A DNA stretch of 64,000 nucleotides from Dictyostelium discoideum. Lineage: Eukaryota. The translations under genes and the position numbers were made by a program. The DNA lies in assembly GCA_000004695.1 (NCBI GenBank), contig CM000152.2:5824001-5888000 (forward strand), written 5' to 3'. Positions 26,862 to 29,669 of the stretch are shown piece by piece (the stretch's first letter is position 1; each line of letters opens with the position of its first letter). The notes beneath the pieces were generated by a model that saw only the letters and a list, made by a program, of their open reading frames with translations, ran no database searches and was not told where the DNA came from.

Positions 26862-29669
26862 CTATCGAGGTGGTTTTGGTTGATTTTGTTGTTGTTGTAA
26901 TTGTAATTGTTGTTGCTGTTGTATATAATTTTCTTGTAAAATATATGGACAATTATTTTGACAATATTCATTCGTTAAAACAGTTGTTCCAATCCATTTA
27001 TAATTTTGAGTTCTAGTTTCTTCAACAGATTTTGACTTTTGAACTAAATTAATTGCTTCAAAAACATTTGCAATATCATAACATCTTTTAATTTTTGCAC
27101 TATTTCTTAATGATATATAATTATCATGAGTTTTTTCAATATTTGGATTAAAATTAAAACAAACATCATGTATTGTTAAACATTTATCAGATAAAAGTAA
27201 TTTCAAAAATTGTGAAACAGTTGTTGATAATTCTGTTTCTTTATATCTAAATTTTCTTCCACTATTAATATTATTCTGTACATTGTTATTATTATTAACA
27301 CCACCACCACTACCACCACCACCACTACTACCACCACCACTACCACCATTATAAAGATCACTCATATTTACAAGACTATATGAATTATTTACACTAACAT
27401 TTGATGATGGTGAAATTGTTGTTGTACTAGTATTATTGGTAGTTGTAGATGTTGATGTTGTTGTTTCTGATGATGTTGATGATGATGGTGATAATAAAGT
27501 TGGAGATACATTTGAAAATTGTAAAATAGGAGAATTTAATATTACACCATTTTCAGAATTTAATTTACAATTGTCACAGAAAAATTCAGAATTTTTAGTA
27601 ATGAAATTAATTTTTGAGTGAAAAGTTGATAAAGCGAAATTTAGAAATTCAGGATTATCTAAACCTAACCAAACATAATTATTACATTTATCATTTCTAA
27701 CCAATTTTGAACATTCCATAATATCTAATATTTCTTTTAATTTAAAGAAATCAACATTTAATAAACTTTCAATTAAACGTACATTAAATTTAGTTACATT
27801 ATTTGAAATTAAATGTTGAATTAGTAAAGTTGTAACCACTTTAATTTGTTTTTTTGCATCTTTTTCTTTCTTTTTAATGAATCCATTTGAACTATTTATA
27901 AATGTTGCTGTAAATTGATTATATGGTGATGGTTGTGGTAATTGAATTTGATTTTGAAATGTACTTTGTGTTGTTATTGTTGTTGTTGTTGTTATTGTTG
28001 ATGTTGATGATGTTGATGATGACGATGATGATGATGATGATGATGATGATGATGATGATGATGATGTGGTTGATGATGTTGATGTTGAAGATGATGTTGG
28101 TGATGATGGACATTGTTGATGTGGATAAATTACTTGATATTGGGATTGACTCTGTATTGGTGATGATGTATTTAATGATAATTCTTCTTCATTATAAATA
28201 TTATTATTATTATTATTATTATTATTATTATTATTATTATTATTATTATTGCTATTATTATTATTTATATTTTTAATATTACTTTCATGTAGTTTTTGAT
28301 ATTCATTTTCAAAATATCTTGTTTTCCTAATTTTCTTTTTTTTCTCTAAAATAGATTCTTGGTTACTATTTCCATTATTATTATTATTATTTTGATTATT
28401 GTAACCATATTTACTACTTGAAATTAAATATTGTTGTTGTTGTTGTTGTTGTTGTTGTTGTTGTTGTTGTTGTTGTTGTTGAGTAGGAGATAACATTATT
28501 TTATCATTTTTTAAATAACTGTTATTTTCGTTTAAAATTGTTGTTTTACTACTTTCACTATTATGTGAAAGTTGTTCAGGTTTTTCAAGTTGTTCAAAAT
28601 TAGAATTTTCTTGGTGTTGAATTTTCTTTTGGTGTTTTTGTTGATTTTCATTATTAATGTAAGGATGTTGTCGGATTATTTTATTATTATTATTATTAAT
28701 ATTATTAATATTATTAATATTATTATTAATATTATTATTAATATTATTATTATTATTATTATTATTATTGTTTATTATATTATCATTATTATTATAATTA
28801 TTATAATTATTATTATTATTAAAGTTGGGATAATTATTATTTTCATTATCATTATTCTTCTTTTTATTTTCATTATTATTTTTTTTATAGTAATAATTCT
28901 GTATATTATTATTATTATTATAGGAATTATTTATATCATTATTGCTATGATTATTTATGATGCCATTATTTGGAATATAATTTTTACCATTATTATAAAT
29001 ATTATCATCATTATTATTATTATTATTATTATTATTACTATTATTACTTCTACTACTACTATTGGAATTATAATTATTATTATTATAATTATTTTGTTTA
29101 TTAAAACTGGTATTATTACTGGTATTATTATTATTATTATTATTATTATTATTATTATTATTATTATTATTATTATTATTATTATTATTATTATTATTAT
29201 TATTATTATTATTATTATTATTAATATAATTTATATTATTATTATTAATATAATTTTTATTATTAATATAATTTTTATTATTATTATTATTATTATTATT
29301 ATTATTATTATTATTATTATTATTATTATTATTATTTGGATTATTATCGTTATTATTATAATTTGGATTATTATTATTATAATTTGGATTATTATTATTA
29401 TTATTATTATTATTATTTGGATTATTATTAGTAGTATTATTATTATTATTATTGGTATTAAATTTATTAAATATATTATTAAAAATATTATTATAAATAT
29501 TACTATAAATATTATTATTACTATAATTAATATTACTAATAAAATCTTTTTTTATTATCTCATCTTTGGTTTTGTTATTATTTTGGTTTTTTGTTGTTGA
29601 GTATGGTGATTTAATTGAAAGATCATTTTCTTCGTCATCTTCTTTATTTGTTATTAATCCTATATCCAT
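26862..29669 (-). CDS. Atypical E2F-like transcription factor with two E2F/DP-type winged-helix DNA-binding domains (E2F7/E2F8/DEL architecture), embedded in extreme Asn-rich low complexity.
   Basis: First ATG that follows the poly-F (poly-A-encoded) artefact gives MDIGLITNKEDDEEN… at 29669. C-terminal half has two winged-helix blocks. DBD-A: …KEILDIMECSKLVRNDKCNNYVWLG. DBD-B: RKFRYKETELSTTVSQFLKLLL…KIKRCYDIANVFEAINLVQKSKSVEETRTQNYKWIG. DBD-B matches the E2F family signature RR(I/L)YDI(A/V)NVL…L(I/V)…K…W.G closely, and resembles E2F7 DBD2 (KIRRLYDIANVLSSLDLIKK…FKWTG). Two such domains in one chain is the atypical-E2F hallmark. Confidence 0.6.
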   Translation of the reverse strand: MDIGLITNKEDDEENDLSIKSPYSTTKNQNNNKTKDEIIKKDFISNINYSNNNIYSNIYNNIFNNIFNKFNTNNNNNNTTNNNPNNNNNNNNNNPNYNNNNPNYNNNDNNPNNNNNNNNNNNNNNNNNNNNKNYINNKNYINNNNINYINNNNNNNNNNNNNNNNNNNNNNNNNNNNNNNNNTSNNTSFNKQNNYNNNNYNSNSSSRSNNSNNNNNNNNNDDNIYNNGKNYIPNNGIINNHSNNDINNSYNNNNNIQNYYYKKNNNENKKKNNDNENNNYPNFNNNNNYNNYNNNDNIINNNNNNNNNNINNNINNNINNINNINNNNNKIIRQHPYINNENQQKHQKKIQHQENSNFEQLEKPEQLSHNSESSKTTILNENNSYLKNDKIMLSPTQQQQQQQQQQQQQQQQQYLISSSKYGYNNQNNNNNNGNSNQESILEKKKKIRKTRYFENEYQKLHESNIKNINNNNSNNNNNNNNNNNNNNNNNIYNEEELSLNTSSPIQSQSQYQVIYPHQQCPSSPTSSSTSTSSTTSSSSSSSSSSSSSSSSSTSSTSTITTTTTITTQSTFQNQIQLPQPSPYNQFTATFINSSNGFIKKKEKDAKKQIKVVTTLLIQHLISNNVTKFNVRLIESLLNVDFFKLKEILDIMECSKLVRNDKCNNYVWLGLDNPEFLNFALSTFHSKINFITKNSEFFCDNCKLNSENGVILNSPILQFSNVSPTLLSPSSSTSSETTTSTSTTTNNTSTTTISPSSNVSVNNSYSLVNMSDLYNGGSGGGSSGGGGSGGGVNNNNNVQNNINSGRKFRYKETELSTTVSQFLKLLLSDKCLTIHDVCFNFNPNIEKTHDNYISLRNSAKIKRCYDIANVFEAINLVQKSKSVEETRTQNYKWIGTTVLTNEYCQNNCPYILQENYIQQQQQLQLQQQQNQPKPPR

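What the first reader, a model, noticed from the sequence alone, without database searches (positions are those of the whole stretch)
26862..29669. Atypical (two-DBD) E2F-like factor in an amoebozoan, embedded in about 700 aa of poly-Asn
The C-terminal 330 aa contain two separate E2F/DP-type winged-helix modules. The second matches the E2F signature almost residue-for-residue (KIKRCYDIANVFEAINLVQKSK…NYKWIG). The tandem-DBD, no-dimerisation-domain layout is the E2F7/E2F8/DEL architecture of animals and plants. If real, this would be an atypical repressor-type E2F in Dictyostelium.
Basis: partly seen in the sequence, partly recalled or inferred. Interest (0 to 1): 0.6.

Follow-up and report, generated by a model that had tools for sequence, protein, structure and literature searches.

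The report
Divergent atypical (two-domain) E2F gene
This is a real social-amoeba gene for an E2F7/E2F8/DEL-type cell-cycle transcription factor with two E2F-type winged-helix domains, the first of which has lost its DNA-reading residues; it is a modest addition to a known family, not a new kind of system.

Summary
The minus-strand ORF 26862-29669 (935 aa, 31% Asn) is real. Its C-terminal 340 aa hold two E2F-type winged helices.

Domain 2 (aa 814-894) is a clear Pfam E2F_TDP hit at 40 bits. It is rescued by other evidence:
- It scores 32 bits against a profile of orthologous first domains; the best of 2000 shuffles scored 10.7.
- An exhaustive HMMER search returned almost only two-domain E2F7/8/DEL proteins.

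Domain 1 matches DEL first domains and domain 2 matches DEL second domains, including the DEL-specific long wing. No coiled-coil/marked-box or DP domain is present.

The twist is that domain 1 reads FKLKE where RRxYD should be, while domain 2 keeps KRCYD. DNA reading probably rests on domain 2.

Closest relatives are dictyostelid "DEL" proteins already listed for Polysphondylium and D. fasciculatum. Published surveys listed no such protein for D. discoideum. Repressor activity is not shown. Verdict: new member of a known kind, interest about 0.3.

The parts
26862..29669 (-). Complete coding sequence: 935 codons plus a TAG stop, single exon as read.
27882..29669 (-). N-terminal low-complexity region, aa 1-596. 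It is 41% Asn, with runs of up to 33 Asn and a poly-Gln tract. A basic stretch EKKKKIRKTRYF at aa 442-453 (28311-28346) may be a nuclear localisation signal (inference).
   Evidence: no Pfam domain at E<=10
27654..27857 (-). Winged helix 1 (DBD1, aa 605-672). It has an E2F/DEL-DBD1-type fold. The recognition-helix motif is FKLKE (aa 642-646, 27732-27746) instead of RRxYD.
   Evidence: Pfam 11-12 bits, sub-threshold. 32.4 bits against the ortholog DBD1 profile, versus at most 10.7 in 2000 shuffles. pLDDT above 90 with an H-E-H-H-E-E topology. Best class HMM is DEL-DBD1.
27534..27653 (-). Structured extension after DBD1 (aa 673-712). It carries the dictyostelid-conserved motif FHS..N..T...EF[FV]CxxCK (TFHS 27615-27626; EFFCDNCK 27564-27587). 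It is the counterpart of the folded proximal linker of E2F8.
   Evidence: Invariant residues in 5 sequences. 17-20 bits to each ortholog on its own. pLDDT 85-90, helix/hairpin/helix. E2F8 linker description from PMC4686757.
27246..27533 (-). Disordered Ser/Thr/Gly/Asn-rich linker between the two domains (aa 713-808).
   Evidence: pLDDT below 50 for model residues 117-212. Composition. The spurious PDB hits to (G4S)n linkers come from this region.
26988..27230 (-). Winged helix 2 (DBD2, aa 814-894). It is E2F7/8/DEL-DBD2-type. The recognition motif is KRCYD (aa 861-865, 27075-27089), with a long wing ending in NYKWIG.
   Evidence: Pfam E2F_TDP 40.2 bits. Best PDB sequence hit is E2F8 DBD2. DEL-DBD2 HMM 52.3 bits versus 15-25 for the other classes. 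Tyr-to-Trp spacing is 28, as in DEL DBD2 (26-29), against 21-22 in E2F, DP and DBD1.
26865..26987 (-). Short Gln-rich C-terminal tail (aa 895-935). It leaves no room for a coiled-coil/marked-box or pocket-protein-binding domain.

Best explanation
The gene encodes a divergent dictyostelid member of the atypical E2F class (animal E2F7/E2F8, plant DEL).

Two E2F-type winged helices sit in one polypeptide. They are predicted to pack against each other as an intramolecular copy of the E2F-DP heterodimer. A folded segment just after domain 1 helps the packing, and a roughly 100-aa disordered linker joins the domains. The protein should therefore need neither DP nor a coiled-coil/marked-box domain, and it has no pocket-protein (Rb) binding tail.

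Shown here: homology, domain order, predicted fold and arrangement, and absence of dimerisation domains.

Inferred: base-specific DNA contact is made mainly by domain 2, which keeps KRCYD. Domain 2 is the DP-like half that reads the GGG half-site in E2F8. Domain 1 is the E2F-like half. It has lost both Arg and the Tyr of RRxYD, and also the N-terminal minor-groove Arg. It is nevertheless conserved with its extension among orthologs, so it probably acts as a structural partner or backbone binder.

The likely role is to occupy E2F-type or half E2F-type sites independently of the RblA/E2F/DP axis. Whether it represses or activates is unknown.
For: - An exhaustive HMMER search of 1.84 billion representatives gave 15 hits at E<=1e-3. 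Thirteen are proteins with two E2F-type winged helices and two are low-complexity matches. The top hits are dictyostelid (Acytostelium, two paralogs; Heterostelium PPL_04042, which is PpalDELb). The rest are classic 2x RRxYD E2F7/8/DEL proteins.
- No canonical E2F or DP protein appeared among those 15 hits.
- DBD1 scores 32.4 bits against the ortholog profile, versus 10.7 for the best shuffle. That ortholog profile, which includes the window's own DBD1 as one of its six rows, hits E2F8 DBD1 at E 4e-16.
- Class HMMs built from non-dictyostelid sequences give DBD1 to DEL1 at 12.9 bits (at most 2.0 for the others) and DBD2 to DEL2 at 52.3 bits (at most 24.5 for the others).
- Pairwise phmmer always pairs DBD1 with DBD1 and DBD2 with DBD2, including with vertebrate-like E2F7.
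- The wing length of DBD2 is 28 residues, matching DEL DBD2 at 26-29, against 21-22 elsewhere.
- No E2F_CC-MB or DP domain appears at E<=10, whereas the positive control PpalE2F gives CC-MB at 109.7 bits.
- The roles of RRxYD, of Arg113 and of the linker come from the E2F8-DNA structure paper PMC4686757.
Against: - DBD1 is below Pfam's threshold and finds no E2F by pairwise search of PDB sequences.
- Neighbour-joining bootstrap support for grouping the two domains with DEL DBD1 and DEL DBD2 is only 36-40%.
- The AlphaFold arrangement may be copied from 4yo2, which was in its training set, and the alignment had only 5 rows.
- No DNA-binding, expression or phenotype data were available here.
- No canonical TTTSSCGC site occurs anywhere in the 64-kb window, so there is no hint of local targets or autoregulation.
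- Lys replaces the first Arg in domain 2, which could also weaken binding.
Confidence: 0.75

Rival explanations
1. Both winged helices still read DNA, but domain 1 has acquired a new specificity. For example, its Lys-rich arm KKKEKDAKKQIK and the Lys residues in helix 3 might read AT-rich DNA. The protein would then recognise a composite site unlike the canonical E2F site, suited to an approximately 78% A+T genome.
For: Domain 1 plus its extension is the best-conserved stretch between this protein and its orthologs (37-47 bits), so it is under constraint. It retains many basic residues. The window is 21% G+C.
Against: All residues known to make base contacts in the E2F half are replaced: both Arg and the Tyr of RRxYD, and the equivalent of Arg113. 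Orthologs vary at these same positions (RRFYE, RRIYE, TRMYS). That pattern looks like relaxed constraint rather than a new fixed reading head.
Confidence: 0.12
2. The two-domain layout arose independently in dictyostelids, by duplication or fusion of an E2F-type domain. It would then not be descended from the ancestral E2F7/8/DEL gene, and the resemblance would be convergent.
For: NJ bootstrap support for the DEL groupings is weak (36-40%). Forbes et al. 2019 treat the D. discoideum genes as species-unique and the group 1/2 genes as a separate 'e2f-like' cluster.
Against: Matches are collinear and reciprocal: DBD1 to DEL-DBD1 and DBD2 to DEL-DBD2. DBD2 shares the DEL-specific longer wing and the insertion between helices 2 and 3. 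The canonical E2F and DP clades exclude these domains with 96-100% bootstrap support. Medina et al. 2016 file the P. pallidum and D. fasciculatum relatives as DEL.
Confidence: 0.07
3. The gene is a decaying or functionless lineage-specific relic. It would be an intact ORF that no longer acts as a transcription factor.
For: Domain 1 has lost its recognition motif. The protein is swamped by Asn repeats. If it is one of the two genes that Forbes et al. call 'unique to Ddis', close relatives such as D. purpureum lack it.
Against: A 2.8-kb ORF is intact in DNA where stop codons are frequent. Domain 2 keeps the KRxYD form seen in most dictyostelid relatives together with a full-length E2F_TDP match. 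The lineage-specific FHS...CxxCK motif is invariant. Asn tracts are usual in D. discoideum proteins (general knowledge).
Confidence: 0.05
4. It is a canonical E2F (E2F1-6 type) or a DP protein that works as a heterodimer.
For: It contains a significant E2F_TDP domain.
Against: There is no E2F_CC-MB or DP domain, whereas a dictyostelid canonical E2F scores 109.7 bits for CC-MB. Only 41 residues follow domain 2. The class HMMs, wing length and NJ clades all exclude it.
Confidence: 0.01

Closest known systems
Dictyostelid 'DEL' proteins: Heterostelium album (Polysphondylium pallidum) PPL_04042 = PpalDELb, PpalDELa, D. fasciculatum DfasDEL, and two Acytostelium subglobosum hypothetical proteins (XP_012748781, XP_012752839)
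   Same: They share the layout: a low-complexity N-terminus, DBD1, linker, and DBD2 close to the C-terminus. The subgroup containing PpalDELb, P0001, P0002 and P0005 shares the FHS...EF[VF]CxxCK extension and the invariant Cys in helix 3 of DBD1. Most have KRxYD in DBD2.
   Different: Identity over the C-terminal part is only 25-28%. The relatives keep RRFYE or RRIYE in DBD1 (TRMYS in Acytostelium), whereas this protein has FKLKE. It is also about twice as long because of Asn tracts, and its inter-domain linker is much longer.
Animal E2F7/E2F8 (structure 4YO2) and plant DEL/E2Fd-f
   Same: Two tandem E2F winged helices, with domain 1 E2F-like and domain 2 DP-like. The segment after domain 1 is folded and is followed by a disordered linker. 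DBD2 has a long wing. There is no DP-binding or pocket-binding region. E2F8 is the best fold match.
   Different: E2F7/8/DEL carry RRxYD in both domains and an RK(E/D)KSLG arm. Here domain 1 lacks both. The CxxC extension is absent from E2F7/8/DEL. Repressor function and binding to TTCCCGCC-type sites are unproven for this protein.
Canonical E2F-DP heterodimer (E2F4-DP2, 1CF7; D. discoideum e2f and tfdp2)
   Same: The same winged-helix fold and the same logic of two recognition helices in one major groove.
   Different: The two domains lie on one chain. There is no coiled-coil/marked-box, DP dimerisation domain or Rb-binding tail.

Membership tests
Atypical E2F (E2F7/E2F8/DEL) | Two E2F/DP-type winged-helix domains in tandem on one polypeptide | tested here: met
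   DBD2 scores 40.2 bits in Pfam. DBD1 is sub-threshold in Pfam (11-12 bits). It scores 32.4 bits against the ortholog DBD1 profile versus at most 10.7 for shuffles. It also has a winged-helix topology at pLDDT above 90.
Atypical E2F (E2F7/E2F8/DEL) | Collinearity: the first domain is of DEL-DBD1 (E2F-like) type, and the second is of DEL-DBD2 (DP-like) type with an extended wing | tested here: met
   Class HMM scores, pairwise domain matching, and a Tyr-to-Trp spacing of 22 in DBD1 and 28 in DBD2.
Atypical E2F (E2F7/E2F8/DEL) | No coiled-coil/marked-box (DP-binding) domain and no C-terminal transactivation/pocket-binding domain | tested here: met
   No E2F_CC-MB or DP hit at E<=10. The positive control PpalE2F scores 109.7 bits. 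Only a 41-aa Gln-rich tail follows DBD2, and no DLFD-like motif is present.
Atypical E2F (E2F7/E2F8/DEL) | RRxYD DNA-recognition motif in both domains | tested here: not met
   DBD1 has FKLKE. DBD2 has KRCYD, a conservative Arg-to-Lys change. This is why I call it a divergent relative, and not a typical member.
Atypical E2F (E2F7/E2F8/DEL) | The two domains pack as an intramolecular pseudo-heterodimer | tested here: inconclusive
Atypical E2F (E2F7/E2F8/DEL) | Phylogenetic placement inside the E2F7/8/DEL clade | tested here: inconclusive
   The NJ tree of single domains groups them with DEL, but bootstrap support is only 36-40%. The E2F clade (96%) and DP clade (100%) exclude them.
Atypical E2F (E2F7/E2F8/DEL) | DP-independent binding to E2F sites and transcriptional repression | not testable with these tools
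   This needs EMSA or SELEX, ChIP, and reporter or knock-out experiments.
Canonical E2F1-6 | A single DNA-binding domain followed by a coiled-coil/marked-box domain and a pocket-protein-binding tail | tested here: not met
DP (TFDP) | A DP-type DNA-binding domain plus a DP dimerisation domain (PF08781) | tested here: not met
   No DP domain. The DP class HMM gives the lowest scores (-0.4 and 15.2 bits). The DP clade has 100% bootstrap support and excludes both domains.

The most novel reading that the evidence does not exclude
In this lineage, an atypical E2F has turned its E2F-like first domain from a DNA-reading head into a purely structural or regulatory module. That module may be clamped by a lineage-specific Cys/His/Cys/Cys metal site: Cys653 in helix 3, His684, Cys698 and Cys701. 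The protein would then read only the DP-like half-site, making it a natural 'half-blind' E2F7/8 with a binding logic not described for this family.
Probability: 0.25. Interest if true: 0.5.

Novelty: new member of a known kind. Interest (0 to 1): 0.3.

Why it matters
Two published surveys of the Rb-E2F network list only E2F and DP for D. discoideum. Cao et al. 2010 (PMC3224931) report E2F7/8 only in Monosiga, animals and plants. The sequence set of Medina et al. 2016 (PMC4862756) has DEL entries for P. pallidum and D. fasciculatum but none for D. discoideum or D. purpureum. A dictyostelid transcription-factor catalogue (Forbes et al. 2019, PMC6873476) calls the extra D. discoideum E2F_TDP genes 'unique to Ddis'.

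Showing that this gene is a collinear, two-winged-helix DEL-type protein fills that gap for the main amoebozoan model organism. It also links the 'species-unique' gene to the group 1/2 'e2f-like' cluster.

It offers a tractable system, with haploid genetics, for asking what an atypical E2F does outside animals and plants. It also allows a test of what happens when the E2F-like half loses its recognition motif. This is a refinement of annotation and family history, not a new mechanism.

Tried and rejected
- The word-indexed homolog search failed twice and found only two proteins with a profile query. Low-complexity words swamp it, and the window's own proteome is evidently absent from the collections.
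- PDB phmmer with the whole C-terminus was dominated by (G4S)n linker artefacts from the Gly/Ser tract.
- DBD1 alone finds no E2F in PDB by pairwise search.
- A canonical E2F site, TTTSSCGC, has 0 matches in the window against 0.5 expected, so nothing can be said about autoregulation.
- tblastn found no second E2F-type gene in the window.
- The literature search for the two candidate locus tags found nothing, and the search for mhkD returned only unrelated papers.
- Model coordinates are not exposed, so the putative metal site and the inter-domain interface could not be measured.
- The canonical E2F and DP readings were rejected, as set out under the rival explanations.
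Full report
**1. What is there**

The region holds one uninterrupted minus-strand ORF. Its first ATG is at 29669 and its TAG stop is at 26862-26864, giving 935 aa. The frame stays open upstream to 29762 only because a poly-T tract reads as poly-Phe.

The window is 21% G+C, and the flanking intergenic DNA falls to 6-14%. A 2.8-kb ORF here cannot be chance. The 342-aa poly-Ile ORF on the plus strand (28572-29600) is the mirror image of the AAT repeats.

The protein has the following parts:
- An N-terminal 596 aa with 41% Asn, including runs of up to 33 Asn and a poly-Gln tract.
- A compact region at aa 597-712.
- A 96-aa Ser/Thr/Gly/Asn linker.
- A second compact region at about aa 808-896.
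- A 41-aa Gln-rich tail.

The low complexity is not all poly-Asn, though.

**2. Are there two E2F-type domains?**

Pfam gives E2F_TDP for the whole protein (41.9 bits). Scanned separately, domain 2 scores 40.2 bits (E 2.8e-10, cut-off 25.7). Domain 1 scores only 11.4-12.6 bits (E 0.1-0.3), although it aligns end to end with the profile. Pairwise search of PDB sequences agrees: domain 2 hits E2F8 best (its second domain, E 1.7e-4), and domain 1 hits nothing relevant.

Deeper evidence restores domain 1.
- An exhaustive HMMER search of 1.84 billion representatives with aa 586-914 found only 15 proteins at E<=1e-3.
- Two of these are low-complexity matches. The other 13 all carry two E2F-type domains.
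- The four best are dictyostelid-type proteins. Two are Acytostelium subglobosum hypothetical proteins. One is Heterostelium album PPL_04042. One is an unnamed EukProt entry.
- The remaining hits are classic E2F7/8/DEL proteins with RRxYD twice.
- In the dictyostelid proteins the first domain is a bona fide Pfam E2F_TDP, with a best E of 1.3e-19 among members.
- A profile of five ortholog first domains, built without the window sequence, scores the window's aa 605-672 at 32.4 bits when that segment is tested alone. The best of 2000 shuffles scored 10.7.
- A profile of those five first domains plus the window's own hits E2F8 DBD1 at E 4e-16, E2F4 at 8e-10 and DP2 at 0.03.

**3. Structure**

An AlphaFold2 model of aa 597-935, built on a five-sequence alignment, has pTM 0.64. 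pLDDT is above 90 across domain 1, 85-90 in the segment after it, 75-92 in domain 2, and below 50 in the linker. Both domains show the helix-strand-helix-helix-strand-strand winged-helix order.

The E2F8 paper describes the same organisation. About 23 linker residues next to DBD1 fold into helices that wrap the two domains, and the rest of the linker is disordered (PMC4686757). One caveat: AlphaFold probably saw 4yo2 in training.

**4. Which class?**

I built class HMMs from non-dictyostelid sequences. These were E2F, DP, DEL first domains and DEL second domains, taken from the Medina et al. source data and. The scores were as follows:

| Domain | DEL-DBD1 | DEL-DBD2 | E2F | DP |
|---|---|---|---|---|
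| Domain 1 | 12.9 | 2.0 | 1.2 | -0.4 |
| Domain 2 | 24.5 | 52.3 | 21.2 | 15.2 |

Other evidence points the same way.
- Pairwise phmmer always pairs domain 1 with the first domain and domain 2 with the second domain of every relative. This includes a vertebrate-type E2F7.
- A discrete character agrees. The distance from the motif Tyr to the wing Trp is 22 in all E2F and in all but one of the DEL-DBD1 sequences, 21 in DP, and 26-29 in DEL-DBD2. The window has 22 in domain 1 and 28 in domain 2.
- A neighbour-joining tree recovers the E2F clade (96% bootstrap) and the DP clade (100%), and both exclude the window's domains. Support for the DEL groupings is only 36-40%, so the tree is consistent but not decisive.
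- No E2F_CC-MB or DP dimerisation domain appears even at E<=10. A dictyostelid canonical E2F used as positive control gives CC-MB at 109.7 bits.
- Only 41 residues follow domain 2, and no pocket-binding-like motif is present.

**5. The twist**

In E2F4-DP2 and in E2F8, base contacts come from RRxYD in helix 3 of each domain. In the E2F-like domain, an N-terminal Arg also enters the minor groove (PMC4686757).

Domain 2 of this protein has KRCYD, a conservative change shared by most dictyostelid relatives. Domain 1 has FKLKE, so both Arg and the Tyr are gone. It also has Asp-Ala where the arm Arg-Lys should be. Relatives show RRFYE, RRIYE or TRMYS at this place, so the reading head of domain 1 looks relaxed across the clade and is fully lost here.

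Yet domain 1 plus its extension is the best-conserved stretch between this protein and its orthologs (37-47 bits). The extension carries an invariant FHS..N..T...EF[FV]CxxCK motif. Together with an invariant Cys at the end of helix 3, this is a possible Cys/His/Cys/Cys metal site.

**6. Most likely mechanism**

Shown: this is a single-chain, DP-independent, Rb-tail-less protein of E2F7/8/DEL type. Its two winged helices are predicted to pack like E2F-DP.

Inferred: domain 2, the DP-like half that reads the GGG half-site in E2F8, provides the specific DNA contacts. Domain 1 serves as structural partner or backbone binder. The protein would occupy E2F-like or half-E2F sites outside RblA control.

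The direction of regulation is unknown. The family lacks activation domains and represses. Here, however, a 596-aa Asn/Gln-rich N-terminus is present and might activate.

**7. What is already known**

- Cao et al. 2010 found E2F1-6, DP and RB in D. discoideum. They reported E2F7/8 only in Monosiga, animals and plants (PMC3224931).
- The sequence set of Medina et al. 2016 has PpalDELa, PpalDELb and DfasDEL. For D. discoideum it has only DdisE2F and DdisDP, and it has no DpurDEL (PMC4862756). PpalDELb is identical to hit P0004.
- Forbes et al. [quoted passage not shown] The gene in this window is very probably one of those two. The neighbouring 941-aa alpha-kinase/WD40 ORF looks like myosin heavy chain kinase D. 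From memory of locus numbering, that would make this gene DDB_G0282499. I could not verify this, because the window's proteins are absent from the searchable collections.

What is new here is the assignment of the D. discoideum gene to the two-domain DEL class, its link to the group 1/2 cluster, and the loss of the domain 1 recognition motif.

**8. Verdict**

It is unproven about repression and overstated about two DNA-binding domains. This is a new, divergent member of a known kind, and interest is about 0.3.

Noticed in passing
window 27534-27722 (-), aa 650-712; also P0001, P0002, P0004, P0005: A dictyostelid-specific conserved motif follows the first winged helix: (I/T)FHS..N..T...EF[FV]CxxCK. 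There is also an invariant Cys in 'M(E/K/Q)C' at the end of helix 3. Together these give invariant Cys/His/Cys/Cys residues that could form a zinc site. The motif is absent from PpalDELa, DfasDEL and E2F7/8/DEL. P0004 gives a weak Pfam hit to the Herpes_UL52 region here (E 0.0027).
   Followed up: partly
window 11955-14780 (-): A 941-aa ORF combines an alpha-kinase domain (161.6 bits) with a C-terminal WD40 propeller. This is the architecture of Dictyostelium myosin heavy chain kinases, probably mhkD (from memory). It supports a D. discoideum origin for the window.
   Followed up: partly
window 28572-29600 (+): A 342-aa 'ORF' made almost entirely of Ile lies antisense to the gene. It is an artefact of AAT (Asn) repeats read as ATT on the other strand, not a gene.
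   Followed up: yes
window 25588-25875 and 26026-26358 (-): Two adjacent small ORFs lie just downstream of the E2F-like gene. The 25588-25875 ORF matches the C-terminal part of ribosome-biogenesis protein SLX9 (47 bits). They are probably two exons of one gene, split by a 150-bp AT-rich intron.
   Followed up: no
window 21721-23037 (-), 24284-24799 (-), 34325-35386 (-), 15851-18502 (-): Neighbouring genes are a class I/II aminotransferase (274 bits), a PhyH-type dioxygenase fragment (probably one exon), a DUF4419 protein (367 bits) and an 883-aa WD40 protein. None has an obvious functional link to the E2F-like gene.
   Followed up: no
whole window: None of the window's proteins that I tested is present in the large protein and contig collections. 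This covers exact look-ups of the E2F-like protein and of the kinase, and also explains the lack of a self-hit in the exhaustive search. The source genome therefore appears to be withheld from these databases. The absence of close orthologs, for example from D. purpureum, should not be over-interpreted.
   Followed up: partly
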